From: Xylographa opegraphella
Taxonomy: Eukaryota
Length of the DNA: 64,000 nt
Assembly: GCA_022813865.1 (NCBI GenBank)
Contig: JALDZX010000008.1
Coordinates: forward strand, 434,001-498,000
Direction: 5' to 3'
The position numbers and the translations under genes were made by a program. Below, one piece after another: positions 31,848 through 52,685 of the stretch. Numbering within the stretch: the first letter of the stretch is position 1; each line of letters begins with the position of its first letter. The notes under the pieces were generated by a model. It ran no database searches. It worked only from the letters and a program-made list of their open reading frames with translations, and was not told the origin of the DNA.

Positions 31848-32949
31848 GCATAGCATTTTGCTTCCCTTGTCTTCATGACGTCCGCATCTACTTTTTAACG
31901 TGCTATTTTCGTGTATAATGGTTGCATAAAATTATGCAAGTCAAGGCATATACGGCATCGATGTGCTTGACAAGTTACAATACATCCACATATCCAAACT
32001 CTCTCACAGTTTCTAATCAACCTGGCATATCGGAGGCTTGCGGACCGCCATTCAGAAATACTCCGATAGCTTCCAGAGCTTGCATTATTCTGCGACACCT
32101 ATGGAGCTTCCTTGTCCGGTACTGAATAATCGTCAACATGCACACTCACCGCAAGCTACGCACATGGAAACACGTACACATCAGTATTAGCGACTTTATC
32201 TCCGACTGGAACCCCTTCTGAAGGACCTCTTCGCCAAGAGCTATAGACCCGGCCCCCCCGAGCACCTTCCTCGCCTAATGCACCCCATCCTGTACCAATA
32301 TCTCCAACCGCCCCTGCACCCGTACGCTCTATACTGGCTAGACAGCGCGCATCACCGGAGCTGCCAGATTACCCACCTCTGTCTGCGCAGCCGTAGCTGT
32401 CAGTATTGCGCAGCAATAGGCGTACGGAGCCTTGTCGGCTCCCCATTTGAGAAGTCGAGCATGCAGGCGACTACTAGTGGAGGACCGACATTCGGATCCG
32501 TGGCTACGAAGGTAGAGATGGTGTCGTGGGGGCTGGTGGAATGCGGGGTGGTTTCAGGGAGTCGAAGCGAAGCGTGCAATGCAGCTGTGGAGGGGCGTAC
32601 TGTGGATGTGGAAGGAGGGTGAGTGCGAGGGCCATGGGCAGGGAGAGGGATGAAGAGTTTGCGTTCCAAGGCTCTCGTGCCTCAGGCCTGTTGAGACTTA
32701 CGCATCATAATATGTAGGAGCTAGGGAACGTGTTCGTGGTTGTTGATAGAAGGAACAGGCTCATCTTCAAGGGTCCTAGCTACTCAATGAACCCTTAATC
32801 TCAATGCTCAAACCAGACGTTTCGTATCATGAATTATGTAACAGCGCCTCGGCCCACCGCTCGGACGACGGCCTCGAGGCACAACACTAGTAATATACAG
32901 TGAAAGAAGACCCCCCACCCCCTCCCACAAAAACCAAAATAAAATAGCT

Positions 32950-35105: not shown

Positions 35106-36771
35106 ATGGCGGATCGTGAGAAAGCCCTCGATGCGGCCAGCACTCAGACGCCGCAAGCCAACGGCCCCGACAATGGTATCATTAAGGAGCCAGCATTCAC
35201 AGTCGAGGCAGGCGGCGACCTTGCCACTGTGGTAAATGAGACGACGACAAAGCCACTCGATCGGTTGATTTTGGTGCCCCAGGTTACAGACCCACGAGCT
35301 TACAAGAGGAGCTGGAAATGGTCGATTACGGTTCTTGTCTCAGCCGCTGCGGCCATAGACTCCATCTCGTCGAACGTTTTCTACCGTATGTCTATGTCGG
35401 AGTTTCTGTGTTATATCCTAGCTCAGAGCTAAAACACCTACTCAGCTTCTCTGCCTCAGATCCCGAGCTCACTCTCCACGTCGCCGACAGTTGCCAACCT
35501 AGCAATTGCCATTCCCATCGCTAGCACTGCCATACTGCCTCTGTACTGGTCTTCCGCTTCGGAGCAGTATGGCCGGCGCGAGACGTATGTCGTGAGTCTG
35601 ATTCTGTGCGTTGTGCTCAATGTCTTATGCGCCCTATCCTCGTCCATTGTCATGCTGGTCATTACAAGAACACTTGCGGCGGGTGCAGGCTGCGCAGTTA
35701 CTCCGATCGGTGCCGCTGTCGTTGCCGACATCTGGGAAATTACGGAGAAAGGTCAGGCCATGAGCATATACTTTGTCGGTATACTTGCAGGTCCTGTCCT
35801 GGGACCGGTTTTGGGAGGCCTGCTTACCCAGCGCTGGAGTTGGCGCGGGACGCAATGGTTCATGATGGCGTACAGCAGTCTCATTCTTTTGTTAATCCTC
35901 TTCGGGCTCCCAAACACCCTACGAGGTGCTGCAGAGCCCAGTTCTGCCACCCAGAACCCCCGGTTGGGATACAAGTCCTCTCGCGCAAAGGTAACTGCGT
36001 GGCTTCTGAGAGCCGGCTCCGCAGCTCTATCACCCTTTCGTATACTGTACTTCCTTTTGTGCCCAGCAATTGCACTCATCATCTACCTCGCAAGCATCAC
36101 CTTCCTAGTCGTCAAAGCTTTACAAATCAGCATCCAACAGTCCTTCGCCACCTCTCCCTACAACTTCACCCCGTCGATCCTCGGCCTGGCATTCCTCCCA
36201 TTCTCAATAGGCCTGATTCTGGGCGACCTCGTGGGCGGTCAATGGTCGGACCATGTCATGCACCGAACGGCAGTCTCGCGCAACGGACAAGAGGAAGGAA
36301 GCGAACCCACCCACACGCCCGAGGACCGCCTGCAAGAGAACGCCTGGGTCGCCATCATCCTGTTCCCGGCTGGCCTTCTCTGGTACGGATGGAGTATCGA
36401 CAAGGGCGTCTTTTGGGTCGTACCGGTATGTTGCTCCTCCATACCCCTTTTCCACCTGATCACTAAATATCCCTGCTTCAACCTAGATGCTAGGCCTAGT
36501 TGCCGTGGGCCTCAGTTCCGGCCTCCTGTTCAGTCTCGTCTTCACCGTCCTGGTGGAGCTGCTCCCCGCACGGAGCGCTTCCTTGGTCGCGTTGGATGGG
36601 CTCGGTGAGAACGCGTTTGCGGCCATCGGCTCGGTCATCGCGCAGCCGATCTTGGCTGCCATCGGTAACGGCTGGGTCTTCACCATCGTGGCGATTGTCA
36701 CGGGTGCGAATGTTTTGGTAATATTACTAATGAAGAAGTATGGGCAGAGGTGGAGGGAGAAGCTGGGATAG
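35106..36771 (+). CDS. MFS transporter, DHA1-like drug:H+ antiporter (2 introns)
   Basis: DPRAY...KW, SEQYGRR, GPVLGPVLGG, WRGTQW, PEDRL, plus multiple TM segments. Confidence 0.88.
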
Positions 36772-37138
36772 GATGGGCATGTTAGGGTTACGGTTCGTTC
36801 GGTAGTGTAGCAGCTTAACGACTGCAGGATATGATAATTTGATTTATTGAATGATGAAAACAAGCAGTAGTCACAGGCCATTGAGATTCGATGTAACATG
36901 TCTCCGAGCGTAGGGCACGCACCCTCTGTGCTGTTCTAGCAAACTGCGTACCACTCGCAGTGCATGTTAATTTACTGGGCACACCGAATCGTAGGAACCC
37001 TGCAGCCTCGTCAAAACCGTACAGAGATCATCCGTGCCCACGCCCCATATAACTACACCGCAGGTATCCAACTCCCAAAAACCAAACATCTCATCCCCCA
37101 ACGCCTCGGATTCGATATCCATCATATCCAACCCCATC

Positions 37139-38335
37139 TCACCCTCCACGCACCCTTCCCATCTCCCTTCCCATGCGATAATGCCTCCCCACAACCGCAC
37201 TCAGCTCCACCTCGGCCTCAAACAAGACCACGACATCCGACCCCCCGAACTGGAAATATGCCAACTCCTCCCCCTTGCGCAACACGACCCCCACCTCCGC
37301 CGTCAGCACGACCGACGACACGACCGCCATCCCGACCGGCAACACAGCCACCAGCCCCCTCGCCGTCTCGAGCACCACGAGGCCCCTCGCCTGCACGAAC
37401 TGGTACCCGGTCTCGTTCGGCGCGTCGAACTCCCTGCGCTTGACGATCTTCTGCTTCGGCTGCTCCAGCACCTGAGCGGTCTGCTCGAGCGGCTCGTCCG
37501 CGCTGCCGATGTCGCGGACCTCGATCTGCGCGTAATGCTGCCCGAGGATGGCCCTTGCTTCCAGCACGCGCCCACCGAGCGGGGCGTGCACGCGGTGGTA
37601 ATCGTTGGTGCCGAGGTAGCCGTGGATCCAGGTGCCGCCCGCGAAGCGCTCCGAATAGGGGCTGTCGGCTAGCAGCTCGCTGATGCGCCACGTGAGGGTC
37701 TTGAGCGTGACGGTCGCGGTGGGGGAGATGGCGAACTGGCCGTTGTAGGTCCAGTCGGCGGGGCTGCTGATGGCGGCCGGGTGGTCGGCGATGGGGCGGT
37801 AGCCGGGCTTGACGTGGCGGGCGAAAAAGTCGTTGAAGGTGCGCCAGCCGCCGCGGGGCTCGAGGTAGTCGTTGAAGTGGAAGGTGGGCGTGCTCTTGAA
37901 CGTTTCGAGGGAGGTGGCCGTTAGCGATTCTGGCGTGTCCATGAAGGCGCCGATGGCGCGGCCGTAGCGAACGATCCAGGCCGAGAGCCAGGAGAGGGGG
38001 CCTGACGAGGAGGGAGTGATGGGGCTCTGGTAGGGGAGTGTGGACGGCTGGTCGAGAACGAAGTAGAATACACCGAATTGGTTAAAGATGTCTTGGGCCT
38101 GGACTCGTTCGCTGGGGATCCAGATCAGAAGCGAGTTGATGAAATCGAGGTAGTCCGTGAAAGACTGGATGTTGGAGAGCTCGTCCATGTTGTATGAACG
38201 GATGGTCTCGATGGCTTTCTCGAAATCGACTCTTCGGTCGTTGTCTGACTGCACCCATTGCTGGAGCTCCTGGACGATGGCTTGATATTGAGGAGTCGCA
38301 GTGGGTCGCCTCGAGATCCAACTCCACAGCATCAT
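37139..38335 (-). CDS. Phosphatidylserine-decarboxylase-family pyruvoyl enzyme (substrate uncertain)
   Basis: TFNDFFAR, SPAD, DYHRVHAP and the autocleavage motif FQFGGS. No C2 domains or mitochondrial leader evident. Confidence 0.85.
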   Translation of the reverse strand: MMLWSWISRRPTATPQYQAIVQELQQWVQSDNDRRVDFEKAIETIRSYNMDELSNIQSFTDYLDFINSLLIWIPSERVQAQDIFNQFGVFYFVLDQPSTLPYQSPITPSSSGPLSWLSAWIVRYGRAIGAFMDTPESLTATSLETFKSTPTFHFNDYLEPRGGWRTFNDFFARHVKPGYRPIADHPAAISSPADWTYNGQFAISPTATVTLKTLTWRISELLADSPYSERFAGGTWIHGYLGTNDYHRVHAPLGGRVLEARAILGQHYAQIEVRDIGSADEPLEQTAQVLEQPKQKIVKRREFDAPNETGYQFVQARGLVVLETARGLVAVLPVGMAVVSSVVLTAEVGVVLRKGEELAYFQFGGSDVVVLFEAEVELSAVVGRHYRMGREMGRVRGG

Positions 38336-39012
38336 GGTCTCTGAATCCTATTTGCTGAAAAAATTGATGAAAACGAAGGTACGATAGATACATCCAAGCT
38401 TCAGAGGTAGAGATTGCACGAATACATCTTGCTTATTCTACAAAACATACATACCTATCGAACTTACTACTGGTCATGCATGTCAGAAACCAATGGTCAC
38501 ATCCACCACCACACCACCGAAACGCCAAGACCAGCAAGTATATGACGGTTTGGGGTTGGACAATCAGGCCGAGGAGATCCAAAGAGACCATAGCCAGTGA
38601 CAGTGTGAACAATACGACGAGTGAAGGCGAGAATAGCCGGTAAAGCGTCATTCCTCTCCGTCGTTGCTCTAGCTCCACCGACGTTCGTGCAGAATCGATC
38701 CATGATAGTCGATTATGCAAGCCATGCTTACTGCATCGAACATGGGTATTCATAGGCTACTCGAAAAGAACCTGCGTTGAATGGATGTAGGATACGTCGG
38801 CTAAAGACCAGCTGCAGAATTCACCACACCACCTTACTTGACCTCACGAACTAATGATGTATCTAGTCGTGCATTCCTTGAAGAGTAGTATAATTCGTGC
38901 GTTGACCTTCGCGCATAAGTGACTCTCTTTGATACGACGTCGAAAGCGTTTTAATAATATTGATAATGCTTCTCTAGAGTATAGTTCTTGGAGAACCTTT
39001 GATCGAGTAACT

Positions 39013-40281
39013 ATGCTGCAGTCGATGCAGTCAGATACGCGGTACTCTCTTGTCAGCTCAGATGATAATAACGAAATACCGATCGAAAAACCATCAGATG
39101 GTTTCCTCAAAGAGCTGAAAAACAAGATCAATAGACCCAAGCTTGTTTTCTGTGGTGTCACCTGCTTACTACTCGGCTTTGCGCTCGGTCTCCTAGCAGG
39201 CAGTTTTGACGTTCGTGCTTTCATTCGCAATACCCCTAGTGGAACTCTATCAGAATGTCTGAATCCCGCAAGTCGTCGCGAGTGGCGAAGCTTGAGTAAA
39301 GCCGAGAAGCACGATTATATCAATGCCGTCCAATGCCTGAGAACAACACCCTCACGCTTGGGCCTCAATCAATCACTTTATGATGATTTCCCATATGTCC
39401 ACAACAGCGTCGGGGGATACTGTACGTAGTTCACTTTATGAGCCACTCGACTCACACTAATACATACTCAAACCACAGCTCATGGTTCGGCCGCTTTTCT
39501 TGCTTGGCACAGATATTTCATACATACATATGAACAAGCACTCCGCGAGCAATGCCAGTATCAAGGTCATTTGGCGTATGTATATACCTATGATCCTTGG
39601 CGTCAGCTACTCACCGTGATACAGTTACTGGAATTGGGGTCTCGACTGGGAAGACGTGACACAGGCACCTGTGTGGGACTCCGAGACCGGCTTCGGTGGG
39701 AACGGCGACCCCAACGTTGGCGAGTCGATTGTGAAAGGTCACTGCGTCGTCGATGGTCCCTTCGCAATGCTCGAAGTTCTGTATCTTGACGACACACTCG
39801 AACCACATTGTCTGTCACGTGGATTCGAGAGCGACGTGGGTCTTGAGCGACAGGGTCAGCATATACGACCGGAAGCCTTAGAGAGGTTGCTGTTGCTCGA
39901 TGATTATGATGCTTTCAACATAGGATTGGAAGATTCCGCGCATATAGCGATCCCACGGACCATTCGCGGAGATTTCTCGCTGTTCACTGCCCCATATGGT
40001 ACGAATCCCTTCTTTTCATCTGCACTGACAATTAGAGTCAAGCTAAGGTCCAACCAGATCCGGTATTCTTCCTGCATCATACACAGTTGGACCGGCTATG
40101 GTGGACATGGCAGCGTAGAGACCCGCAAAAGCGGATATGGCAGTATAATGGTGTGACAGCTCATGGCTCGAAAGAACCAGCATCACTAGAAGATAAGATC
40201 TTGATGGGAGGATTGGCGCCGGACATTGAAGTGTCCGAGATTATACTTACAGAGTCGGATTTGATGTGTTATTGGTATTGA
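39013..40281 (+). CDS. Tyrosinase-family di-copper protein with N-terminal TM anchor (3 introns)
   Basis: RREWRSLS. Spliced CuA HNSVGGYSHGSAAFLAWHR, YWNW, and CuB region AHIAIP...DPVFFLHHTQLDRLWWTWQ. TM segment LVFCGVTCLLLGFALGLLAG. Confidence 0.9.
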
Positions 40282-40764
40282 AATCTTTCGTCCCCGGTGC
40301 GAAAGACAAACGCGGTCTAGTCACTCGGGAGAAATGATTGTCCGAGATATCGCTCTCGTTTTTGACGAACTTGCCTTTGATTATTGACTCCTCCTTCAAT
40401 ATTTCGTGGTGATAATGCAACTGAGCTTCTTTAACTTGACTGCTGCTACTCTGGTATAGACTTGTGCCGCAGCGGTGTCTACCTTAGTGTCGAGAATCGA
40501 GAAAACGGTCATGCAGTGCTCATGCACGCTGTTTTGGTCTCACATCCTGTCCCACACTAAGGCACTGCGTCATGGTGGACACGGTCGACGTCTGGCTACA
40601 TCGGTTACACTCCCTCGTTACAGTCGTTACAGTGCTTATCTCTTGCACATCATTCGATCTCCTCACCATGCATGATGTTGTACTTACTATAGTAGTACGG
40701 AGCTACGACAGCACGAACCTCTCAATGTCTGTTTTAGTGGGATTGCAGGGCCCGTGTGACCGGC

Positions 40765-40901
40765 TGCTTCCTGGTAGCTTCCGCAACCTCGGCACGAGCC
40801 GCCACTCAATCCTAGCGGTAGGATCCCGGTCTTACGCTATTCCATAAAGAGACCGGATACTCCGTGCTCACTGGAAGCTTCCGAGACCACGGCACGAGCC
40901 G
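40765..40901. repeat. Imperfect 37-bp direct repeat, copies offset by exactly 100 bp
   Basis: tgcttcctggtagcttccgcaacctcggcacgagccg versus tgctcactggaagcttccgagaccacggcacgagccg (31/37 identical by manual count). Confidence 0.75.
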
Positions 40902-42080
40902 TGAGTTGGTTAGGCCGCGAATCCCTGTCATGAGGCAGGGATCGGGCCTCTGTCCGGACAACCACGCCGAATGTCAATCAGAGGTAGCGCAACTGTACTT
41001 CAGACGGCTTGGAAGTGAAGAGGAACGTTGGGTTGTGGACCTCATAATTTCTTGAATCGCTGCCATTGCTATTTTCCTGCTCAACGAGTCAATCCCTTCT
41101 AGTGCTTTCGTGTCCGTACAACAGGTCATCTATTGTCTTCATCTGTATCCTTCGCAGCGTGAAAGACTGAGTAGGATATTGATCTTTGGTAACACCGGTC
41201 TTCGAATGAAGTACGGTGCAGGATATTGCGCGATACAGCACACCATCCCGTTCAAGATAATCCTCCTGTGCTCTGCGTCGACAAGGTTCAGGGGTGTGAC
41301 ACTGCTCGCTCTATGAGCTCGCTCGTCGCTCGTAATGCCTCTCTGTCGAAGCTCCGATAACCTTTGCCGGTCTTGGTCTGTTACCTACTTGCTCGAAGAC
41401 AACGATGGGCCTGGTGTGGAGAAACTATGACGATAAGATGATACAACGCACTTGCTGTTGCATCCTTCACCCTACTATTGTATGGGCCGGTTTTAGAGTA
41501 CACAGCCTGCCAGCGCTTTCAATGACTTAGTCTTATCGGCCTGAGTCGGCTCGATTGTACCAAATTCTGCGATCGCTGGCTCAGCTTAAGCACCTCTTGC
41601 CTAGAAGCTGCTTAAACTTGAAGGTTCTAGGCTCGACGGTCTTGGCCATTGAGGGTGTTTTTGAAGGGTGGGCTGATTAAGGTCCATCACACCAGTTGCA
41701 GAAGAAGATGACGTCCCTGTGCTCTATTGCAGCCTCAAGACTGGCTATCATCGTCATGCCGTACAATGGCCAAGCGTCCTATCCTGCCCAATCATGTACA
41801 TGCGACATCCTCCTCAGCAAGTGTGCAGATGTGGTGTAACACAAACGAGCCATTAGTGCGATCGTGGTTGACGATGGCGAGGTCTACCGTTATATATATT
41901 CTCTGTTATATCGTTTGTCTTGTAACTTCAGCGATATTCATTTCTTCGAGCAAGGATATCGAATCACTAACCTCGGCATCAAACTTACTAAACTGAATTA
42001 CTGTTCACGCATAGAACCTGAGCCTGCTTTCCTGATTCTGTCTCTTTAACAATCCTTGTCCTTTACCATTCTTCTTCACG

Positions 42081-42556
42081 ATGCAATATTTCAATTTCTT
42101 TCTTGTTACCTTTCTGGGCTATGCCGCATGCGCCCCGATAAGTATGTTGCGCGTGGTAACCCACGTAAACCATTCAGCTGATTGACGGCAGTCTTATCCG
42201 ATATGGCGCCTGACTATAAGCGAGAGATGACTGCAGATTACGAGGTCGCTCCGGACTATAAAAGGGATATGGCTGCAGACTACAAGAGGGAGATCACTGC
42301 GGACTACGAGGTTGCTCCGGACTATAAGAGAGATATGGCCGCCGACTATAAGAGGGAGATCACTGCGGATTACGAGGTTGCTCCGGACTATAAGAGAGAT
42401 ATGGCCGCCGATTACAAGCGAGAGATCACTGCTGACTACGAGGTCGCTCCGGACTATAAAAGGGATACGGGTGCAGAATACAAGAGGGAGATCACTGCGG
42501 ACTACGAGGTTGAGCCGGATTACAAGAGAGACATGGCTGCCGACTACAAGAAATAA
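42081..42556 (+). CDS. Kex2-processed repeat protein (KEP), a candidate RiPP precursor of 141 aa (intron 42142-42191)
   Basis: Exon 1 encodes the signal peptide MQYFNFFLVTFLGYAACAPI. A GTATGT...CAG intron joins it in frame to ILSDMAPDYKR and then alternating EITADYEVAPDY-KR / DMAADY-KR repeats. Ten KR sites plus a terminal KK. Confidence 0.9.
42200..42553 (+). repeat. Coding tandem repeat, 66-bp unit x5 plus a partial unit
   Basis: 22-aa unit DMAADYKREITADYEVAPDYKR with mostly synonymous differences between copies. Confidence 0.95.
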
Positions 42557-43954
42557 ACCAATATTTCAACTATAAGCTTGCTCCAGATTTTTGCAAAGGA
42601 ATTTGAGCAGATCATTAAGCAACGGATAATTTTAGTAGAGAACTGAGACATATCAAGAAGAATGGACTTTATAACTGTACTTCCAGCTCACTATGACTAT
42701 CTTCAATAAGCTGACGGGGGGGAGTGACAGCGGCCAGAATAGTGTCTGAGCATGCCAAGAATTCAACCACGAAGGCGTTCAAGCCCATGTCACCACGCGG
42801 CGATCCCAACAGCGGAGACGGCACAGCTTGAGCTTCTCGGCCAGAGGGCATTCAAAATACGGATCGACGCTTATCGGCTGAGGCTCACGGCTTTATATGA
42901 TACAATCAAATACGCGTTATTTAGTAATTTAACCGGCCCCGATAGAACATCATTTATAACGTTACGTATAACTGTTTATAGTACCCCTTTTTCCCCGCGT
43001 CGAACCAGCATTCTAAGTAAAGTTATGTCAATCAAAACCCCAAAACCAATTCGATATCAACGCTTGGAGCTGACCTAGCCCCAAGATACGAGCCGGTTCA
43101 CCGGCATAACTGGGACGGAGCCGGCCATAGGACCTAAGTGGATCGGCCCAAGATTGAGCCGTTCGGGAGCCATGTGCGGGCGGGACGGAAAATGGCCCCC
43201 ACTAAGTTAGAGCCCCGAACGAGCCACGGATGCCCCGGGGCCGCGGTCCTATTTACTAGTAGTGGGACGAAGCCGTGTATTTTACAAAGCAAGTTATTTA
43301 TGTCTTGGCAGTAATATTGAAGCGGCATGAGATCGCCTGTTACCCATGTGGCCAAGTCCAGCGGCACAGCATTCAAGAATCCTTCAGTATGGCCTTCCAA
43401 TCAACACTGCAGGTGGCGGCGCACACACCTTCTCGATATGGTGTGTTGCATTGATGAGAATCACTTTGCTTTTACTTGTATCCATGGTCGACGTCAAGGG
43501 TTTACAGCAAGACTATGGCATGACTGGCTCCTGTCGTAGCCACACACCTCGTCCCACACGTGCAGCTTGCAGGCAGCCCATATCCCAGTACTGGATACAC
43601 CAATTGAAGAACGGCATGACTGGCGAAGCCAGGTACTATTGAGCGGCGGAAGACTCTCATGTTATCCGAAGCGGGTTTTGGTGTCTCGGCTGTGCCGTCT
43701 TCGTCCCTCTGGGTATGCCGTCTCGTTCCACATGGACGAATTGTTGTCGTAGCCGGCGCCAACGCAACCGACTTTTATCTCTCGCGTTGCACAAGTGGAG
43801 AGTATGCAGGTCGAGATCTGCCGTACACGCCCACGTGGTTTTCCGGGCATATATTTACCTTTGTTATGGAAATATTATAGAAAAACGAAATCACAAGGCG
43901 ACAAAACGATAACTTTTTCTCTACAATCAACGGCTATTGGCGATACGGGGTATC

Positions 43955-46038
43955 ATGGATACGACCTTCAGCGACAGTGTAAGTCTGTTCCTCATATCGT
44001 CAGAGCTCCTGCTACGTCAGGGAGTTTTTACTCTGATGCCCCAATACTATTTAGCTAATATCTCTGGCAACTGTAGAGTCTTCATGAACTTGAAAATGAG
44101 CTTCACACCGAGGTCGTACCTGGCACGGAGATCATGACCGATGTTGGATCACATCACTTCATCAAAAGCAAAGGCAATGCCACTGTCCTTGTTCCGCAAC
44201 CGTCGCAGGATCCTCACGATCCGCTGGTAAGTGACTATTAACTCTTGCATACACATCATAACTACTATATCATTTGGATAGAAGAAGTGGTCTGTATAGC
44301 TGATAATATTCTGCCTACAGAATTGGAGCCCAATATGGAAGTTCTCAGCAATGGCATCTACCTCGCTGGCAACGTTCATGTTGATACTCTCACCACTAGC
44401 CATCGCACCCATTTTCCCAGACCTCATTATGGACTTCAACTCCGATTTGGCTGGCGTAGTACAATTTACGGGAACAACCATTCTTGTTCTGGGATTTGCA
44501 AACTTCTTATGGTCAGCCACATCCTGCTCCAAGCTCTCTCCTGCAATCAAGGAGCGTCCAGATACTGATTTGTTACTGTAGGATCCCTTTAAGTGACGTA
44601 TATGGAAGAAGATTCGTTCTACTGGCGTCGCTTCTGGTCCTGATAGCAAGCCACATCTGGCGTGCTGAAGCCGGATCGTACTCAAGTTTCATGGGCGCCG
44701 CAGCTATCGCGGGAATTGGTGGTGCTCCTGGAGAGGTAATTCGATTGCGCACAAGGACCGGGGAGTCTCCGACTGACAACAAAATATAGGCTCTACAACC
44801 AATAATTACCACAGATGTTATGTTTTTGCATGAAAGAGGACTCTACACGACATGGTACTTTTCGATACTCTATGGCTCTACTATGGTATTGATTTTCAAC
44901 TATCGTTCTTGGATGCTGTGCTGACTCTTTTCAGCTTGGTCCAATTATCCAAGGAAGTATGGCTCAAGCATATGGATGGCGAAGCTTTTGGTGGCTCAAT
45001 ACGGGACTATGTGCCCTCGCCTTTGTCTTTGTTCTTGTGGGCTTTCCAGAGACGAAACATGTCCGTGTCTATCCAAGCGAGGCACAGAATGGTGCTCCAG
45101 CGTTTGTGACTACCGAGAAAACAGATGCGATATCCCACAAATCTGGGTCATCCGCCGTCGCAACGAGTAATGCAACACCAGTTCCAGCCTCCAATGCGCC
45201 GGATGATTCCCATCTCGGTAAAGGCAGGCCAAGTAGGAGTCAATGGAGGCTTCTGCAACCGGAGAGTCACCCTTTACGACCACTCGCCTTTGGTCTCTAC
45301 CTCCCGTTCAAGTTGTTCTGCTTCCCAATCGTCGTTTTCGCCACCTTTATAGTCAGCTTCAGCAGTACCTGTTATCTGATGATCACGTTTATCCAATCTC
45401 AAGCCTTCGCCGTCCCTCCGTACAGCTTCAACCAGGAATTCATCGGATTTATGAACTTCGCCTCCCTCATTGGTGCCCTGATCGGTCTGTTCACTGCTGG
45501 CCCCCTGAGCGATTGGGTTAGCGCCAAGCTGACCCGACGAAACAATGGCATCCGAGAGCCGGAAATGAGACTTCCAACTATGATACCTTATGTCATAATC
45601 ATGCTTCTCGGAAACTTTGTTGTAGCATTTGGTTTGCAGAACGATTGGGACTGGAGGGTGAGTTCATTTATTACCCCATTCCAATGTCCGGTAACGAAAA
45701 GCTTCTGACTCCATATGTCGCAGGCCATCGTCGTCGTAGGTTTTGGCTGCGCCGGTATTCAAATCGCGTCACTACCAGCTATCGCCTCCACATACGCAAT
45801 CGACTCCTACAAGCCGGCTGCGGGTAGTATTTTCATCGCCATCACTATCAACAAGAACCTGTACGGCTACGGGGTTTCGAAGTTCATCACCCCGTGGGTG
45901 ATACAGTCAGGCTACGTGCCTCCGTTCATGACGAACATGTGTCTGTTATTCCTGTGGGTATGCTGCGGCGCCATCTTCTGGGTCTGGGGCAAACGTTTCA
46001 GGACGTGGACTGCGAAGAGCAGTATCCATCGCCAATAG
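43955..46038 (+). CDS. MFS transporter (HOL1-like), multi-exon
   Basis: VVPGTEIM, LVPQPSQDPHDPL-NWS, YGRR, GWRSFWW...FPET, NGIREPEMRLP. Confidence 0.87.
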
Positions 46039-46516
46039 ATAGATAGCATTGATGTTTGGTCGCGGTGATGTAAACCGCTGTGATACCGACGTAGGCATAG
46101 TACGAACGCGTAGCCGACAGCCTCGCATGGATGATATCATACTGCATGCTTTGGTGCTGATCTGATGCGAGCAACCATCCCGAAGGATTTTCGGTTCCTT
46201 GTCCCGTGCATTGGTGCCTTCGGAGCCCCACGCATCGCAAAGGGCCGTAGATGTGGTGATCTGCCACGAGGCAATTGGCATCCCCCTGTCCGCTCTCTCC
46301 CCATCTCCCACCTCGACGCAAGAAAAACATGTGCCCCGCACGCAAAATAGCTATTTAAGCATTTTCCGGCGGGACATCAAACCGCCTCTCTTCCATCACG
46401 CCTGCCCCTTCAGACACGGTGGAGGAGAGCCCGAAGCCCACTTCTACGCAGTGATCCGATAGACCTTGGAATTTCCCCAAGCCCCGTTCGCTGCTCTACT
46501 CGGCTCCGTCCCCGCA

Positions 46517-48015
46517 ATGGCCTCCTCGCAGCACCCCGCAAGCGGCGGCACCCTTCTCAGCCAGCTCTCGGCCGTGGAGATTCCGTCGGGGGAGACGCTG
46601 GATGAGCGTACACGCAGGGAGGCGTTGGCGGTTGCGAAGGGCATCGTCGACGCGCTGGAGAAGCCGGAGGAGGTGGTGATGCGGTATGCCAACGAGGTGA
46701 GGGCCCGTCCGTTCCGCTACGCTTCCCTCCCTCTGCCGAAGGTTTGGATCTCTCTCGCGACCCACACGGTGCTGAATATAGGCTACTCTGCAGATAATGG
46801 CGCACCGCGTCAGCCTGCGGGTCGGGGTCGAGCTCGGGCTGTTCCGCATGCTGGTGCAGCGGGGCGTGACGCCGCTGTCGGCGAAAAGGATGGCGGAGCA
46901 GACGGGTGCGGAGCTGTTGCTTGTTGGTGAGTGGGTGAGAGAGTGTGTGTGGGGGGCAGACGTGGCATGAAGGGAAGGGGAGACCGATGTGCTGATGCTG
47001 CGGGGTGGTTTTTTTAGTGAGGATCATGCGCGTTGTGTGCGTTATTGGCTTTGCGAAGGAGGTGGGCGTGCAGAGCTATGTGGCCACGCGGCTGACGAAG
47101 GCGATCACGTCGCCGGCGATGGAGGGTGCGATGATGATTTGGTAAGGAGGTGCTCTTTCGGGGCGGATGGTGGATGGGTGCTGATCGAGCGCGGTAGCCA
47201 CGACTATTCCTCTACGTGGCAGCTGCCGCAGTACTTCCAGGCCCATGGCTATACGTGTCCGACCGACAGTTCGGACTGCCCGTTCCAGTGGGCATTCAAA
47301 ACGAAGCAGACGTATTTCGAGCGCATCCACGAGAGCCCGGAGGCGATGAAGGCGTTCAACAATTTCATGAAGGAGATTCGCAGCACGCGGAAGTTCTGGG
47401 CCGATTGGTATCCCGTGGAGGAGGAGATAATCAGTGGGTTTGCGGGCGGGCCGGAGGATGTGCTTCTCGTGGATGTTGGGGGTGGGAACGGGCATGATTT
47501 GGAGTCCTTTCTTGCTTCTTTCCCGCAGGCCAAGGGCCATCTCGTTTTGCAAGACTTGCCGGGGACGATTGAGAACCTCAAGCCCAAAGATGGGATTCGA
47601 GCCATGGCTCACGACTTTTTCACTCCGCAGCCTGTCAAAGGTGAGCAGGTCGTTATGGTGCTATTCGTCGAGATATGCTGACTGTTGGGCAGGCGCCCGT
47701 GCCTACTACACCCATTTCGTGCTGCACGACTGGCCCGACGAGAAGTGCCGGGTGATTCTGCGCGAGCTGATGGCCGCCATGAAACCGGGATACTCGAAGC
47801 TCGTCCTCAATGAGAGTGTGCTTCCGGATATCGACTGCTCGCCGTGGTTCGCGACCAACGATATCAACATGATGGCCATCCTTGCCGGCATGACGCGCAG
47901 CCAGTCACAGTACGTGGAGCTGGTCGAGTCGGTCGGCCTCGAAGTGGTGAAGGTCTGGCGATCGCCGGATGCGGAGGATGCGGAGGGGGTGATTGTAGCG
48001 GTCTTGAAAGCGTAG
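46517..48015 (+). CDS. SAM-dependent O-methyltransferase (methyltransf_2 type with winged-helix N-terminus), multi-exon
   Basis: LLVDVGGGNGHDL, LQDLP, HDFFTPQP, YYTHFVLHDWPD. Confidence 0.92.
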
Positions 48016-48109
48016 GATAATCAAACCCTAGAGTCACGAGATGTTTCGGCGCGTATATACTTCCTGAGTCCGAGTTACAATTTTTTTCGTGGTTGAATTC
48101 ACCGGGCTT

Positions 48110-48844
48110 TCATTCGTCAAACTTTATCAGCAACCAGACATACTTCTGCCCATTCTCCCCCCCGCCCTTGCCGAAATCAAAGATCTCGCTCCCAATCTCC
48201 TGCATCCCGGCTTTGAGATACGTCCTTAGGCCCATCGGCGTTGCGATCGTCCACACCCCCTTGATTCTGCCCGGCCGGGCCTTCGCATCCACCTTCGCTT
48301 GCTCAATCCCCCACCGCACGAGCATGCTCCCCAGTCCGCGCTGCTGAAACTCCGGCAGCGTAGCCAGGGCATCCAGATACCAGTAATGGGAATCACGGTC
48401 ACCGCCCATAAGCGCCTCAGACCACCCCCCCACCAGGGTATCATGCAACCTCCTCATCAGCACGCGCGCATCCCGGTTCTCCACTGGCGCGTCCTCGATC
48501 GCAGGCACCATAGGCCGCGACTCCAGAGCCGGTTTCGTCGCGTTAGCCGCGGGCGCGCACCAGCAGGCCACGGCGACGACTTGAGCGGCGGAGCCGTCCG
48601 CGGGCCGGTAGACGACTTTGCGCCAGTGCCGGTCGGCGTTGCTATCGCCCCGGCCTTCCAGCGCGTTGCTCATCCGCATCCGCTTCCAGGCGCGGGCGAC
48701 GGCGCGTGTTTCGGCAGTTGTGAGCGGCGCGGAGGCGGCTTGGCTGATGGGGTTGCTGGCGAAGGCCCGCTCTTCGATGTCGAGCATGGCGTCGACGTCT
48801 GCGAGGGACATGGGCTGGATCTCGAAGGGCGGTGGGGACACCAT
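48110..48844 (-). CDS. GNAT-family acetyltransferase
   Basis: WYLDALATLPEFQQRGLGSMLVRWG (motif A, QxxGxG) and ATPMGLRTY. Confidence 0.85.
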   Translation of the reverse strand: MVSPPPFEIQPMSLADVDAMLDIEERAFASNPISQAASAPLTTAETRAVARAWKRMRMSNALEGRGDSNADRHWRKVVYRPADGSAAQVVAVACWCAPAANATKPALESRPMVPAIEDAPVENRDARVLMRRLHDTLVGGWSEALMGGDRDSHYWYLDALATLPEFQQRGLGSMLVRWGIEQAKVDAKARPGRIKGVWTIATPMGLRTYLKAGMQEIGSEIFDFGKGGGENGQKYVWLLIKFDE

Positions 48845-49352
48845 GGCGGTGTACTCGATGCGGGTGTGCAGATGGGTGGAGTTAGTGTACTCGCTTGGGA
48901 GTGGATTGAAGTAGAAAGCGACTGAAGCTTTGGCTCGTGTGCTTTTTTGGCCCACTTCCACAGCGCAGTTCGCGCTAGAGTCGCGCTAGGGTTAGGGCCT
49001 GTGCGGCGGTTAAGCCTCAAGCGCAGCGCCGACGACTAGCGACAATAGCCGCCTTGACCTGCGCACACTGATGTGATACTAGAGACGAAATAAGCATCGG
49101 ATTTCAATCGTTCGTACTAGGTGTCATAGACGTGGAACTATTTTTGTCTTTCCAGCTCATAATATTCACAAGGCGAATTTTGATGAATGAAAAGTCGGCG
49201 TGACCGGCTGAGTTTGAAGTGAGTTCAGTATCCACGATATGTACCTATGTGCCAAGGACCTCAGCCTTCGCCACCTCGAGCCATTGTCTCGAAACCGGCA
49301 CCTCCACGTCCCACTCCAACCCTCCTGCCTTCCCACCCCCCATTCTCATACC

Positions 49353-51464
49353 CTACGCATCCGTATACTTCATCAACCCCACCTCTAGCGCCTTGATCTG
49401 CAACGCCAACAACCGCGAATAGTAGCGGCACAGAGCCAAGTTCCCGCCGAAGAACCAGAAACCTTCATGCCCACTTCTCCTCCAGATTGTCCGCAATTCG
49501 CCTTCCTGATCATAGCCCCATACATCACCCACCTGATCTGCCACCTTATCCCCAAATATCTTCCGTGCGGTCTCCCGCATATTCTGATACCCAGTCGCAA
49601 ACACGATCTCATCCGCTTCGATTTCCTCCCCGTCCGCGAACGTCATGCTGTGCTCGTTTACGTGCGAGATCTCTTGCCCTTGTTTGACTCTGATTTTGCC
49701 ATCTGCGATCAGCTGCGATGCTCCAACGTCAATATAGTAGCCGCCTCCACGATGCATATACTTCATCCAGAGGCCCGCGCCATCGGGGCCATTATCGAGT
49801 GCGAACCCTGCAGCCTGCAGGCCCTGCAGGAGGGTTGCGTCGCGGCGGGTCGTTTCGCGTGTGGCGTCGATGTGGAAGCGCTTGAGAACGGGACTGGGAA
49901 GGGAGTGGCTGATGAGATCTGCGTCCTCAACGGGAGGACCGCCTTCGCAGTAGACACCTGCCATCGTGACGTCAATGAGCGCGCGGCTGGTTACCACGAG
50001 GGTACTGCTGCGCTGCACCATCGTGACCGCATAGCCGTGCTCGAGATAGTCCTGTGCAATGTCATGTGCGGAGTTGCAGCTACCGACTATGATGGCTTTT
50101 TTCCCGGCGCCCGCGGATTGAGGGCCGACGAATTGCGAAGAATGAACGAGAGGGCCATGGAAGGAGGAGAGGCCGGGGATGGTGGACGGGAAATTCGCTT
50201 CGCCGCTGGCACCAGTGGCTTGGATTATATGACGTGGGTGGAATGTCCCTATCTGAGGTCAGTGGGAAGCAAGCGGATGATGGTGATATACGTACGGATT
50301 GACTTCTTTCCATCCATGTCTCGCGTAAGCGTTACGGTCCAGTGCTTGGCTTTCTCATTCCATATTGCTTCTGTGAGTGTGGTGGAATTCCACACGTTGA
50401 GCTCCATGGCCTTGACGTATATCTCAAACCACTCTGCAAGTTTGTCCTTCGGAGTGAATACCTGGATGAATTAGTATCAGGACGTCTATGAATGGAGAGC
50501 CCGGAGAACTTACAGGCCAGTTCGGTGGGAAGTCTAAATATGGCATGTTGTCATACCTTTGAGACTCGTTCAGTATTCTGTAGTGCTATGGATTGGGGCC
50601 GCAGATCTTGAGCTTACCACACCGCATCATGGAGAACCAGCTGGTGATATCTATTGCGCCAATTGTCTCCGACATGAGGGTTTTGATCGACCATGAGAGT
50701 TACAATGCCTAACTGCTTCAACCGTGCAGCTGCTGTCAAGCCCCCTTGGCCAGAGCCTTCAGCGTGAAACGTCAGCTCTGTGTCTCCTTCCCACAAATAA
50801 TGGAAGACTGACCGACAATGATTACCGAGGGCTCAAGCCCATCCTCAAAATTCACTTCGGCATCTCTTCGTTCTTTCCAATTCTTCCTTCCAGGATGCGA
50901 ACCATGAATGACACCCGTTGGTCTCCGTTCCTCAATGAATTCTTCATAACCTTTCAGTTCTTTCAGCGAGGTGAACAAAGTAAAAGCTTTCCATTTGCCC
51001 CCGTCGTCTGGATCTTGGACAAGCCTGACCAGACCCCTGCCTCTGCCAACGTCAGTTTCGACAGTGAGGAACGACTGGATGCCTTTCAGAGTTCCCCCAA
51101 AATCGACTGAGGCAACTGTAGGCTTTCCCACATAACTGGTCTGGTCAATAGCGAGAGAAGTAATTCGTGAACCCTTGCTCTGCGCTTTTAAGATAGATGA
51201 GATATTCTCCCGACCACTAAGGGTATGGAAGTCCCATGTCAGGCAAAGAAGATCCCTCCAGTATGATTCAGAAAGAAAGACCTTGGAGAGATCAGAAGCA
51301 CCACTTTGGAGATGGTCATTGGACAAAGAAAGCCATCCGGTGACTACAGATTCTGCGTCCAATTGAGATAAGTCCGTGGGCCTTGGGTAGAGCACTGGAT
51401 CAAGAGCGTGGGAGCCCGGTAACATGCGGTTTGACGATAGGACCTCCACTGCAGCCGTGGCCAT
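49353..51464 (-). CDS. Flavin-containing monooxygenase (class B, N-terminally extended type), multi-exon
   Basis: IVGSGQGGL FAD motif, GDNWRNRY...LHD, FHGPLVHSSQF, VGSCNSAHD, GGYYIDVG, FATGY. N-terminal YWRDLL domain. Confidence 0.9.
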
Positions 51465-52685
51465 GATGTAGACTCAGGACTGTATGGTAGCACGGCCAGT
51501 GAGCACTCCAGCGTGGCGTTGGTGAGTCCATTACTGAAATGTAGCGAGCGTGGCAGCCAGCGGAGCAATGACGAAATAAGGAAATCATCGCCTCGCCCTC
51601 ACAGAGCAGTTCGGAGGTAATCACGCATTGAATTATGCCGCGTCAACGGTTCTCACTTCCGTGGCGTGGGCCAGTCTCCTGGTCGAGCGGTTGTTGTGCC
51701 GTGCTGTGTATTACCCCACGGGATTGCCACAAAATGCCTTTATCCTAAAGCTACCTTAATCCTAGGTGCCGTGGGGGGCGGGACGGGAGTGTTTCCTAGC
51801 GCTTCGATAGTGTCAAGCCTGATCCGTGCATGGGACGATGACATCACTACGCTCGACCTCATCTCTCGACTTTCGGCCTTCAGCTGACAGTTTCGCCCCC
51901 ACTGGATCATCTGCCATTGCCTCAAGGATTTCAATCCTTCGCTGAAGCAGAACAAGGACCTCATAGGTCCGCATTCTAGTTCTGCAGCCATCCTTACTTT
52001 CATCGCCTCTCAGGATGACTGATGGATCCTCACACCATGACCATCACCGGGGCCACACTTTATTCAAGTATGCCTGCCCGTTGCAGTGTACGGGCATTTG
52101 ACTTGAGCTTGTTTGCTTTTATCGAACGAGTACCTGAGTGCTGGTCGTTGACGAGGACGAATAATTGCCATTGCGCCATACTTTAAACCTTGTTTACTCT
52201 CCTCGTCTAGACCCAACATACGAAGTATCGTCCAGCGTGTCGTACGACCGCTGTGCCACCTCAAGGCAGAGACGATCACTGCGGCCTCGTTACCATGCTC
52301 CTTCGCTCCTCCTCATGTAAGCCACTCGGCGTCATAGCCCTCTGAAAAGCCAGGATTCTGTTGGTTTTTGGGCAGTCCTTGAGCTGCGCGTGGTCGGAAC
52401 AGCAGGTCGCAGTTCTTTATCTGCTTGAAAGCTACCACACCACAGTAATAAACTGGCATCCCTTCGTGGCACAGCTGGTTACAGCTCTGGATTAACGCCA
52501 GTATGATTGACTGCCGGTACTACGATAATCGGAGCACTTCAATGGCCCACATAGAATTGTTCTGCGTTGCTGCATGCTTCCTTATTCTTCATTGTGAAAG
52601 ATCGCTTTGTTGCTAAGTTTTAGGGGCACTCGACAGTCTGTTTCTGTTTTCACGCAATCTCATTAAAGCGTCAACAAGTCTCAAC

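What the first reader, a model, noticed from the sequence alone, without database searches (positions are those of the whole stretch)
35106..51464. Candidate tyrosinase-type fungal RiPP cluster with no visible DUF3328 oxidase
Seen: the order is MFS, PSD-like decarboxylase, tyrosinase, repeat precursor, MFS, O-methyltransferase, GNAT, FMO. The block has no PKS/NRPS backbone and is bracketed by two PTH11-like genes. Established: the ustiloxin cluster pairs its precursor with a tyrosinase (UstQ), a methyltransferase (UstM), FMOs (UstF1/F2), an MFS (UstT) and DUF3328 oxidases (UstYa/Yb) carrying HxxHC motifs. I found no HxxHC-bearing gene near the precursor. Inference: maturation may rest on the tyrosinase alone (Tyr hydroxylation or cross-linking), possibly followed by methylation and acetylation. 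Only the tyrosinase-precursor link is strong; the other genes may be bystanders.
Basis: partly seen in the sequence, partly recalled or inferred. Interest (0 to 1): 0.85.

Follow-up and report, generated by a model that had tools for sequence, protein, structure and literature searches.

The report
Tyrosine-repeat secreted peptide gene beside tyrosinase
A fungal gene for a secreted, cleavable repeat peptide whose fragments almost all end in Asp-Tyr lies next to a membrane-anchored tyrosinase of the type used in ustiloxin and phomopsin biosynthesis, with no DUF3328 oxidase nearby, so it is a plausible but unproven candidate for a new kind of modified fungal peptide.

Summary
Pfam scans confirm the gene order MFS, PSD-like decarboxylase, tyrosinase, repeat precursor, MFS, O-methyltransferase, GNAT and FMO. 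Two PTH11-like genes flank the block, and there is no PKS, NRPS or DUF3328 anywhere in the 64 kb.

The precursor is a real-looking two-exon gene of 141 aa. It has a hydrophobic signal-type N-terminus and ten KR sites. Its repeats keep the peptide sequence through many synonymous changes. A full phmmer scan found three short secreted relatives. In the four proteins together, 24 of 25 dibasic-terminated fragments end in [A/P]-D-Y.

The tyrosinase (367 aa, type II membrane anchor) aligns end to end with PhomQ1' at 38% identity. It shares that family's odd H-x3-P in place of the second CuB histidine.

Adjacency, enzyme subtype and the invariant Tyr favour a tyrosinase-precursor pair. Three tests could not be run: a genome-wide DUF3328 search, expression, and synteny in other fungi. 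The pyruvoyl PSD-like enzyme needs a free alpha-amino acid, so it is an unlikely peptide tailoring enzyme. The other enzymes could form a separate small-molecule module or be bystanders.

My odds: tyrosinase-modified peptide about 0.4, unmodified peptide beside unrelated enzymes about 0.3, and a split conventional dikaritin about 0.15.

The parts
32811..33903 (-). PTH11-like (fungal rhodopsin domain) membrane protein, left flank; approximate limits
   Evidence: PF20684 E 3.2e-31 on ORF 33412-33903
35106..36771 (+). MFS transporter 1 (several exons)
   Evidence: MFS_1 E 3.8e-31 on 35433-36605 and 3.4e-6 on 36487-36768. ATG read from the translation.
37139..38335 (-). PSD/PsiD-family pyruvoyl decarboxylase, single exon, 398 aa, with the FQFGGS self-cleavage motif. 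It is divergent from the tyrosinase across a 677-bp gap.
   Evidence: PF02666 E 5.3e-43. Present as P0001 in the protein collection. PDB: PsiD 1.8e-12, E. coli PSD 6e-11, Ao-ADC1 7.5e-9.
39013..40281 (+). UstQ/PhomQ-type tyrosinase-like protein, 367 aa. Exons are 39013-39421, 39479-39575, 39625-39998 and 40058-40281. It has a short cytosolic N-terminus and one TM helix (type II anchor).
   Evidence: Introns of 57, 49 and 59 nt, all GT..AG. PF00264 in three exons. End-to-end alignment with 16 relatives including PhomQ1'.
42081..42556 (+). Kex2-processed repeat precursor, 141 aa. Exon 1 is 42081-42141 (signal-type N-terminus), the intron is 42142-42191 (GTATGT..CAG, 50 nt), and exon 2 is 42192-42556. 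It has ten KR sites, and its fragments end in [A/P]DY. A TATA-like site lies at 41891 and AATAAA at 42552.
44460..46035 (+). MFS transporter 2 (several exons; limits approximate)
   Evidence: MFS_1 E 2.6e-12 on 44893-45705 and 7.3e-4 on 44460-44786
46517..48015 (+). Class-I O-methyltransferase of the fungal small-molecule phenol type (with introns)
   Evidence: PF00891 1.7e-5 and 1.4e-10. Nearest solved structures are MpaG' 2.5e-25 and LepI 2.6e-19.
48110..48844 (-). GNAT acetyltransferase, single exon, about 244 aa
   Evidence: PF00583 E 8.2e-7. No solved relative at E<=0.01.
49353..51464 (-). Long class-B flavin monooxygenase with an N-terminal extension of about 220 aa (with introns)
   Evidence: Pyr_redox_3 7.1e-11, FMO-like 2.3e-9 and NAD_binding_8 3.8e-5. 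PDB 8acs at 1.6e-69 for the C-terminal part and 1.1e-22 for the N-terminal part.
52617..53393 (+). PTH11-like membrane protein, right flank (first exon ORF)
   Evidence: PF20684 E 1.7e-26

Best explanation
The precursor and the adjacent tyrosinase form a minimal two-gene peptide-modification module.

**Proposed mechanism**
1. The 141-aa precursor enters the ER through its signal-type N-terminus.
2. In the Golgi it is cut at ten KR sites by the housekeeping Kex2 protease and trimmed by a carboxypeptidase.
3. This releases about four copies each of a 12-mer (EITADYEVAPDY type) and a 6-mer (DMAADY type). All of them end in Asp-Tyr.
4. The tyrosinase is a type II membrane protein with its catalytic domain in the same lumen. 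It oxidises the conserved Tyr to DOPA or the quinone, the role assigned to UstQ/PhomQ at the start of the ustiloxin and phomopsin pathways.
5. No DUF3328 oxidase is at hand, so no Tyr-to-aliphatic ether ring is made.
6. The product is a catechol or quinone peptide, possibly cross-linked.

**Shown:** the gene structures, the repeat architecture, the conservation pattern, the enzyme subtype, the predicted topology, and the absence of DUF3328 in 64 kb.

**Inferred:** secretion, Kex2 cleavage, that the tyrosinase acts on this peptide, and the chemistry.

The PSD-like, OMT, GNAT, FMO and MFS genes are most likely not part of this module.
For: **(1) The gene looks real and is under selection.**
- It has a canonical 50-nt intron, a TATA-like site 190 nt upstream and AATAAA at the stop.
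- Among the five 22-codon units, codon differences summed over the 10 pairs are 63 synonymous against 24 non-synonymous.
- Units 2 and 3 encode identical peptides with 4 synonymous differences. Unit 1 differs from each by one residue and 8 synonymous changes.

**(2) The protein belongs to a small family.**
- phmmer against 1.84 billion representatives gave 90 hits at E<=0.001, mostly long low-complexity proteins.
- Three hits are short secreted repeat proteins: P0273 (70% identity), P0271 and P0280.
- Over the four proteins, 24 of 25 fragments that end at a dibasic site end in [A/P]-D-Y. The one exception ends in A-E-Y.
- The Tyr before the cleavage site is therefore the conserved element.

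**(3) The tyrosinase is of the RiPP-associated kind.**
- Exon 3 hits 'tyrosinase ustq' (45%) and Swiss-Prot PhomQ1' (41%, E 1e-16).
- The full model aligns with PhomQ1' over 352 positions at 38% identity.
- The two share the N-terminal anchor, the CuA histidines, H-x3-P at CuB and the C-terminal LCY-Y.

**(4) The topology fits.** Basic residues precede the single TM helix, which places the catalytic domain in the lumen where the precursor travels (inference from the positive-inside rule).

**(5) The two genes are direct neighbours on the same strand** (40281 to 42081), and this is the only KEP-like ORF in the window.

**(6) Literature.** UstQ and PhomQ are each required for formation of the cyclic scaffold from Tyr-containing KR-flanked repeats (PMC6514808, passages).
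Against: - No evidence of expression or co-expression exists; no RNA run could be listed.
- The neighbours of the three precursor relatives and of the closest tyrosinases (Lasallia 69%, Bathelium 62%, Bogoriella 61%) could not be retrieved. Co-occurrence is therefore untested.
- In the survey of 7878 KEPs, 78% lack DUF3328 within 15 genes, and tyrosinase genes show no accumulation next to those KEPs (PMC7329392, passages). A chance neighbour is credible.
- All 27 dikaritin-type clusters found with PhomA/PhomQ/PhomM carried DUF3328 proteins (PMC6514808, passages). A UstQ-type enzyme working alone has no precedent.
- The tyrosinase shares its promoter region with the PSD-like gene, not with the precursor. 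The precursor sits 1.8 kb downstream.
- No shared promoter word was found among the cluster's upstream regions.
- The family lacks the second canonical CuB histidine, so its chemistry may not be classical Tyr hydroxylation.
Confidence: 0.4

Rival explanations
1. The precursor is an ordinary unmodified Kex2-processed repeat protein, giving linear secreted peptides such as a signal, effector or pheromone-like peptide. It merely lies beside unrelated enzymes. The tyrosinase, its divergent partner the PSD-like decarboxylase, the OMT, GNAT, FMO and the two MFS genes either form a backbone-free small-molecule pathway from an aromatic amino acid, or are unrelated accessory genes. Such a pathway would run: decarboxylation to an amine, ring hydroxylation, O-methylation, N-hydroxylation or N-acetylation, then export.
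For: - 78% of 7878 KEPs have no DUF3328 nearby, and tyrosinases do not accumulate beside those (PMC7329392, passages).
- The PSD-like enzyme has the GGS pyruvoyl motif. Its solved relatives decarboxylate free Trp (PsiD) or free Arg (Ao-ADC1), or phosphatidylserine. All of these need a free alpha-amine.
- The OMT is nearest small-molecule phenol methyltransferases.
- The PSD-like gene and the tyrosinase are divergent over 677 bp.
- The enzyme set makes chemical sense for an arylamine (inference).
Against: - No species is shared between the named hits of the PSD-like protein (top 120 of 735) and of the tyrosinase (77).
- No longest-contig length is shared between the two lists (compared by eye). 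The enzyme pair is therefore not visibly conserved either.
- The tyrosinase is of the UstQ/PhomQ subtype with a lumenal domain, while the other enzymes have no signal or anchor.
- Bacterial members of the PSD-like family have no conserved partner: Pfam on the two immediate neighbours at 14 loci found only a second PSD paralogue, at 3 of the 14.
- The strict conservation of Tyr before each cleavage site in four proteins calls for a reason.
Confidence: 0.3
2. It is a conventional dikaritin-type pathway that is split. The precursor and UstQ-type tyrosinase lie here, while one or more DUF3328 (UstY) oxidases that make the ring are encoded elsewhere in the genome.
For: - Every characterised pathway that uses a UstQ/PhomQ enzyme also needs DUF3328 proteins (PMC6514808, passages).
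- Lichen-fungus clusters with DUF3328 x2, tyrosinase and OMT but no detectable precursor have been described (Clan R1, PMC12048977, passages). Parts can therefore be separated or missed.
- The nearest tyrosinase relatives are from lichen-forming fungi.
Against: - DUF3328 genes sit on average 3.09 genes from their KEP (PMC7329392, abstract and passages).
- Here there is none in 64 kb, in ORFs of 75 aa or more, or in small ORFs around the precursor, and no HxxHC motif within 20 kb.
- The fragments place Tyr directly before KR, without the Tyr-x-aliphatic core seen in ustiloxin and phomopsin (recalled core sequences; YAIG/YVIG/YVIP are quoted in PMC7329392).
Confidence: 0.15
3. The repeat ORF is not an expressed gene. 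It would be a tandem-repeat DNA element that happens to be open, and the finding would reduce to a lone tyrosinase among accessory genes.
For: - Neither the precursor nor any relative was found among predicted proteins of 66-210 aa in the 5.8-billion-cluster collection.
- No RNA data are available.
Against: - There is an excess of synonymous over non-synonymous differences between repeat units.
- The gene has a signal-type first exon joined by a canonical intron in phase.
- Three relatives share the same architecture.
Confidence: 0.05

Closest known systems
Ustiloxin cluster (ustA precursor, UstQ tyrosinase, UstYa/Yb, UstM, UstF1/F2, UstT)
   Same: It has a signal peptide plus KR-separated Tyr-containing repeats. 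A membrane-anchored short tyrosinase of the same family is present (hit named 'tyrosinase ustq', 45% in exon 3). An MFS, a methyltransferase and a class-B FMO lie nearby.
   Different: No DUF3328 lies within 64 kb. The methyltransferase is a phenol-type OMT, whereas UstM is described only as a methyltransferase in PMC6514808. No P450 or PLP enzyme is present. Tyr sits directly before KR instead of inside a Tyr-x-Ile core. The tyrosinase is the direct neighbour of the precursor, whereas it is 7 genes away in ustiloxin (PMC7329392).
Phomopsin cluster (PhomA, PhomQ, PhomM, PhomYa-e)
   Same: The tyrosinase aligns with PhomQ1' over 352 positions at 38% identity, with the same anchor, CuA histidines, H-x3-P at CuB and C-terminal motif. 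The precursor is of the same architectural type.
   Different: There are no DUF3328 genes (five in phomopsin), no S41 peptidase, and no zinc-finger regulator in the window.
Parmeliaceae 'Clan R1' putative RiPP clusters (PMC12048977)
   Same: They are from lichen-forming ascomycetes and have a tyrosinase and an O-methyltransferase together.
   Different: Clan R1 has two DUF3328 genes and no detectable repeat precursor. This locus has the precursor and no DUF3328. No sequences from that paper were compared here.
Stand-alone Kex2-processed repeat proteins (alpha-factor type, KEPs without DUF3328; PMC7329392)
   Same: They have a signal peptide and multiple KR sites, and acidic residues follow each KR. 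No cyclisation factor is nearby, as in 78% of KEPs.
   Different: This one has an invariant Asp-Tyr before each cleavage site and a UstQ-type tyrosinase next door. No match to MF_alpha families was found in the Pfam scan.
PsiD (Trp decarboxylase) and Ao-ADC1 (Arg decarboxylase), PSD-family pyruvoyl enzymes
   Same: It has the PF02666 domain, an N-terminal helical extension, and a FxFGGS cleavage motif as in the PsiD alignment.
   Different: The relationship is only distant (E 1e-12 to 1e-8). Its own subfamily is about 50% identical between fungi and many bacteria and has no characterised member known to me.

Membership tests
Dikaritin (ustiloxin-class) RiPP cluster | Precursor with an N-terminal signal peptide and repeated core peptides flanked by KR | tested here: met
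   The 141-aa model has a hydrophobic N-terminus, ten KR sites and five 22-aa units. The signal peptide was judged by hydropathy only, not by a dedicated predictor.
Dikaritin (ustiloxin-class) RiPP cluster | DUF3328 (UstY) protein with a double HxxHC motif in the cluster (the class-defining enzyme) | tested here: not met
   No PF11807 hit in 320 ORFs of 75 aa or more across 64 kb, or in 76 small ORFs around the precursor. There are only 2 HxxHC motifs in six frames, both more than 20 kb away in tiny ORFs.
Dikaritin (ustiloxin-class) RiPP cluster | DUF3328 protein anywhere in the genome acting in trans | not testable with these tools
   No genome is held for this window.
Dikaritin (ustiloxin-class) RiPP cluster | UstQ/PhomQ-type tyrosinase (accessory feature, original definition by Ding et al.) | tested here: met
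Kex2-processed repeat protein (KEP) | Secretory N-terminus plus several repeats separated by dibasic KR sites | tested here: met
   Cleavage itself is inferred.
UstQ/PhomQ-type tyrosinase-like protein | PF00264 domain, about 370 aa with no C-terminal lid domain, an N-terminal TM anchor, and full-length alignment with PhomQ1' | tested here: met
   PF00264 in three exons. The 367-aa model is 38% identical to P0197 over 352 positions.
UstQ/PhomQ-type tyrosinase-like protein | Conserved copper-site residues of the family: three CuA His, a first CuB His, H-x3-P, and the HH pair | tested here: met
   H130, H138, H147, H275, H300 and H301 are conserved in at least 15 of 17 aligned sequences. Pro stands where hemocyanin units have the second His of HxxxH. 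That this pattern defines the family is my reading of the alignment, not a published criterion.
Classical melanin-type tyrosinase | Six copper-ligand histidines, including HxxxH at CuB | tested here: not met
   The second CuB His is replaced by Pro in the window protein and in all 16 aligned relatives.
PSD/PsiD-family pyruvoyl decarboxylase | PF02666 domain and a Gly-Ser self-cleavage motif | tested here: met
   PF02666 at 5.3e-43. FQFGGSD is invariant in 16 of 16 aligned sequences. Cleavage and substrate were not tested.

The most novel reading that the evidence does not exclude
This is a DUF3328-independent class of fungal ribosomal peptides. In this reading, a family of secreted precursors is cut into short peptides that all end in [A/P]-Asp-Tyr. 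A dedicated UstQ-type copper enzyme in the secretory pathway converts that terminal Tyr into DOPA or a quinone. The result is catechol peptides, for example metal-binding, adhesive or cross-linking agents of a probably lichen-forming fungus. The enzyme family's missing CuB histidine would point to non-classical copper chemistry.
Probability: 0.25. Interest if true: 0.8.

Novelty: new variant of a known kind. Interest (0 to 1): 0.5.

Why it matters
All characterised fungal repeat-precursor RiPPs that use a UstQ/PhomQ enzyme also use DUF3328 oxidases, and genome-mining tools key on DUF3328. If a tyrosinase alone matures a Kex2-processed precursor, three things would follow:
- a hidden set of fungal peptide products would be missed by current mining rules;
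- the long-unclear individual role of UstQ-type enzymes could be tested in a two-gene system;
- the first ribosomal peptide chemistry would be tied to a lichen-type fungus.

If the adjacency is chance, the locus is an ordinary unannotated secreted repeat peptide beside accessory metabolic genes.

Tried and rejected
- **RNA runs:** no RNA holder was listed for window 37001-47000, so no reads could be laid.
- **Word-indexed homologue search with the precursor:** 0 hits at E<=0.01 among 3475 candidates of 66-210 aa.
- **Metagenome scan with the precursor:** 54 pattern matches gave one confirmed locus, L001. It is a bacterial xanthine/CO-dehydrogenase-type FAD subunit with a chance 'ADYKRDMAA' stretch, so I rejected it as spurious.
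- **Cluster look-up for names and accessions** of the three precursor relatives and seven tyrosinase relatives: the database was switched off.
- **ESM Atlas:** no usable hit.
- **Bacterial genome scan with the PSD-like protein alone:** 40 pattern matches, none confirmed. With alignment A1 it found 540 loci and kept 80. Pfam on the two immediate neighbours at 14 loci gave no conserved partner and no phosphatidylserine synthase, so there was no functional clue.
- **Promoter word search** over eight upstream regions: one 8-mer shared by four regions and none at k=9 or 10, so it was uninformative.
- **Literature:**
  - No paper combined PSD, tyrosinase, OMT and a fungal cluster meaningfully (one irrelevant hit).
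  - No paper held '8ACS'.
  - The motif searches PDYKR/ADYKR/DYKRD returned only PD-L1 and SARS-CoV-2 papers.
  - The motifs are absent from the three supplementary files of PMC7329392, which list accessions rather than sequences.
  - A search for dikaritin, tyrosinase and new-class fungal RiPP papers from 2022 on listed nothing describing a tyrosinase-only class (listing only).
- **PDB search with tyrosinase exon 3 alone:** no hit.
- **Complex and structure prediction:** not used.
- **Tyrosine sulfation of the Asp-Tyr motif:** considered and not pursued, because no fungal sulfotransferase is known to me and none is in the window.

Full report
**What is there**

The window is fungal DNA with short GT..AG introns. 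Its first 32 kb hold housekeeping genes: a PAK-type kinase, an RCC1-like protein, phosphoglycerate dehydrogenase, a glyoxalase, a Miro GTPase, WD40 and arrestin proteins, F-actin capping protein alpha, a UBP hydrolase and Vps27.

An accessory region starts at about 32.8 kb.
- PTH11-like, 33412-33903, minus strand
- MFS, 35106-36771
- PS_Dcarbxylase, 37139-38335, minus strand
- tyrosinase, 39013-40281
- the repeat ORF, 42081-42556
- a second MFS, about 44460-46035
- Methyltransf_2, 46517-48015
- GNAT, 48110-48844, minus strand
- a class-B flavin monooxygenase, 49353-51464, minus strand
- PTH11-like, from 52617

Beyond the second PTH11 gene lie a short-chain dehydrogenase, a 2OG-Fe(II) oxygenase, an amino-acid permease and an amidase.

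**No DUF3328, no backbone**

I scanned all 320 ORFs of 75 aa or more in the window against Pfam (35+107+127+53 ORFs, which include two 72-aa ORFs). I also scanned the 76 ORFs of 30-74 aa in the two 1.8-kb gaps that flank the precursor.
- PF11807 was not hit, and neither was any PKS or NRPS domain.
- A six-frame search for HxxHC found two occurrences in 64 kb, in ORFs of 44 and 31 aa at 21.9 and 9.7 kb. Neither is in a DUF3328-like context.
- The precursor sits at 42 kb, so roughly 20 kb or eight genes on each side are clear.
- The published average distance of DUF3328 genes from their precursor is 3.09 genes (PMC7329392, abstract and passages).
- The rest of the genome could not be searched.

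**The precursor**

The sequence and a script give a two-exon gene.
- Exon 1 (42081-42141) encodes a hydrophobic signal-type N-terminus.
- A 50-nt intron follows (GTATGT...CAG).
- Exon 2 (42192-42556) encodes the repeats.
- A TATA-like site lies 190 nt upstream, and AATAAA overlaps the stop.
- The protein is 141 aa with ten KR sites and a terminal KK.
- Tandem Repeats Finder reports a 66-nt unit, 5.3 copies, 84% matches.
- Cutting at KR gives alternating 12-mers (EITADYEVAPDY type) and 6-mers (DMAADY type).

The five 22-codon units differ mostly at synonymous positions. Summed over the ten pairs there are 63 synonymous and 24 non-synonymous codon differences. Units 2 and 3 encode the same peptide with 4 synonymous differences. 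The pairs are not independent, but the direction is clear. The peptide sequence, not the DNA repeat, is being kept.

**Relatives of the precursor**

The word-indexed search found nothing. The metagenome scan found only a spurious bacterial match.

The exhaustive phmmer search of 1.84 billion representatives gave 90 hits at E<=0.001. Most are long, charged, low-complexity proteins. I inspected twelve of them. Three are short proteins with a signal-type N-terminus and dibasic-separated repeats of the same kind:
- P0273: 83 aa, 70% identity over the matched part
- P0271: 70 aa
- P0280: 132 aa

Over the window protein and these three, 24 of 25 fragments that end at a dibasic site end in [A/P]-D-Y. 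The exception ends in A-E-Y. Everything upstream of that tripeptide varies freely. So a small family exists, and its conserved element is an Asp-Tyr placed directly before the cleavage site. Their genomic neighbourhoods could not be retrieved.

**The tyrosinase**

Hand splicing, checked by script, gives four exons and 367 aa. A short N-terminal tail rich in basic residues is followed by one TM helix and then the catalytic domain. This is a type II anchor with a lumenal enzyme (inference from the positive-inside rule).

Exon 3 finds 77 longer proteins at E<=1e-5.
- The best are from lichen-forming fungi: Lasallia pustulata 69%, Bathelium mastoideum 62%, Bogoriella megaspora 61%.
- Further down come a protein named 'tyrosinase ustq' (45%) and Swiss-Prot PhomQ1' of the phomopsin producer (41%, E 1e-16).

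The full model aligns end to end with 16 relatives. It is 54-55% identical to the Bathelium and Bogoriella proteins and 38% to PhomQ1' over 352 positions. Seven histidines are conserved in at least 15 of the 17 aligned sequences (H130, H138, H147, H230, H275, H300, H301).

At the position where hemocyanin units show the second histidine of the CuB HxxxH motif, the whole family has proline. The closest single-domain solved structure for the family is the Aspergillus oryzae catechol oxidase 4j3p (E 1.6e-34, with the Bogoriella protein as query). The enzyme is therefore a member of the UstQ/PhomQ kind and not a classical melanin tyrosinase.

**The other genes**

*PSD-like protein.* It is 398 aa in a single exon, with an FQFGGSD motif invariant in 16 of 16 aligned sequences. 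It is a pyruvoyl enzyme.
- Its nearest solved relatives are PsiD, a Trp decarboxylase (1.8e-12), E. coli PSD (6e-11) and Ao-ADC1, an Arg decarboxylase (7.5e-9) (Ao-ADC1 chemistry from PMC12904898, passages).
- All of these form a Schiff base with a free alpha-amine next to the leaving carboxylate. A peptide does not offer that, so I consider it an unlikely tailoring enzyme for this precursor (inference).
- Its own subfamily is about 50% identical between fungi and many bacteria. I examined Pfam for the two immediate neighbours at 14 bacterial loci. No partner recurs except a second PSD paralogue, at 3 of the 14.

*Other enzymes.*
- The OMT is nearest the phenol O-methyltransferases MpaG' and LepI.
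- The FMO is a long form homologous over its whole length to PDB 8acs, an entry titled only 'FAD-dependent oxidoreductase'.
- The GNAT has no solved relative.

*Do the genes travel together?*
- The PSD-like gene and the tyrosinase are divergent across 677 bp. The precursor lies 1.8 kb downstream of the tyrosinase on the same strand.
- Named PSD-like hits (top 120 of 735) and named tyrosinase hits (77) share no species. By eye, no 'longest contig' length occurs in both lists. There is thus no sign that these two enzymes travel together elsewhere.
- This is weak evidence, because both lists are truncated.

**Weighing**

Points for a functional precursor-tyrosinase pair:
- They are direct neighbours.
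- The enzyme subtype has only one characterised role known to me, oxidative processing of Tyr in KR-flanked repeat precursors (PMC6514808, passages).
- Precursor and enzyme are predicted to share the same compartment.
- The family-wide invariant Tyr otherwise has no obvious reason.

Points against:
- Tyrosinases do not accumulate next to KEPs that lack DUF3328 in a survey of 7878 KEPs, and 78% of KEPs have no DUF3328 (PMC7329392).
- All 27 clusters found with PhomA/Q/M contained DUF3328 (PMC6514808).
- No expression data, no synteny and no shared promoter words are available.

I put the tyrosinase-modified peptide at about 0.4, an unmodified KEP beside unrelated or small-molecule enzymes at about 0.3, a split conventional dikaritin at about 0.15, and a non-gene at about 0.05.

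**Comparison and novelty**

The locus works most like the first step of the ustiloxin and phomopsin pathways. It fails the class-defining test for dikaritins, since no DUF3328 is in the cluster. I therefore do not file it as a dikaritin cluster.

It complements the Parmeliaceae 'Clan R1' clusters (DUF3328 x2, tyrosinase and OMT, with no precursor found; PMC12048977, passages).

Four searches of the held library turned up no description of a tyrosinase-only fungal RiPP or of DY-KR repeat precursors. A 2022 review abstract still lists four fungal RiPP classes (PMC9233826, search listing only). Subscription papers are not covered.

If real, this is a new variant of a known kind. It is a reasonable genome-mining candidate with a cheap two-gene test.

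Noticed in passing
window 39835-39850 (tyrosinase exon 3, CuB region); also P0127-P0197: The whole UstQ/PhomQ-type family has H-x3-P where classical tyrosinases and hemocyanin units have the HxxxH pair of CuB ligands. This holds for the window protein and 16 of 16 aligned relatives, including PhomQ1'. An extra conserved His (H230, in the PHCLSRGF stretch) and an HH pair remain. These 'tyrosinases' may not have a classical dicopper site.
   Followed up: partly
window 37139-38335 (-); loci L002-L081: The PSD-like decarboxylase belongs to a subfamily that is about 50% identical between ascomycetes and many bacteria (Acidobacteria, Caulobacter, Bacteroidota and others; 540 bacterial loci). That is unusually high and suggests horizontal transfer. 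In 3 of 14 bacterial loci examined, a second PSD-family paralogue lies next door. No characterised member is known to me.
   Followed up: partly
window 39013-40281 and 42081-42556: Neither the tyrosinase nor the precursor came back as a 100% self-hit from the protein collections, while the PSD-like gene did (P0001, on a contig of 571,943 bases). Both genes are probably missing or mis-modelled in the public annotation of this assembly.
   Followed up: no
window, whole: The closest named tyrosinase relatives are from lichen-forming fungi (Lasallia, Bathelium, Bogoriella), and the closest named fungal PSD-like relative is from Trapelia. The window probably comes from a lichenised or related ascomycete with no close sequenced relative in the named sets.
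   Followed up: no
window 54948-64000: Beyond the right PTH11-like gene lie a short-chain dehydrogenase (from 54948), a 2OG-Fe(II) oxygenase (56989-57939), an amino-acid permease (60520-62361, minus strand) and an amidase (from 63518, minus strand). This may be a second accessory metabolic block or an extension of the first.
   Followed up: no
window 43321-43536 (+): There is a sub-threshold Pfam hit to the GH3 N-terminal domain (E 0.0047, 16.6 bits against a cutoff of 23.6) in the gap between the precursor and the second MFS. Among 76 small ORFs this is about what chance gives, but several short plus-strand ORFs cluster here.
   Followed up: no
P0138, P0168 (relatives of the tyrosinase): Two public gene models fuse a tyrosinase of this family to a GMC oxidoreductase (Botrytis fragariae) and to an ABC transporter (Cordyceps javanica). 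These are probably mis-joined neighbours, which hints at the cluster context of those relatives.
   Followed up: no
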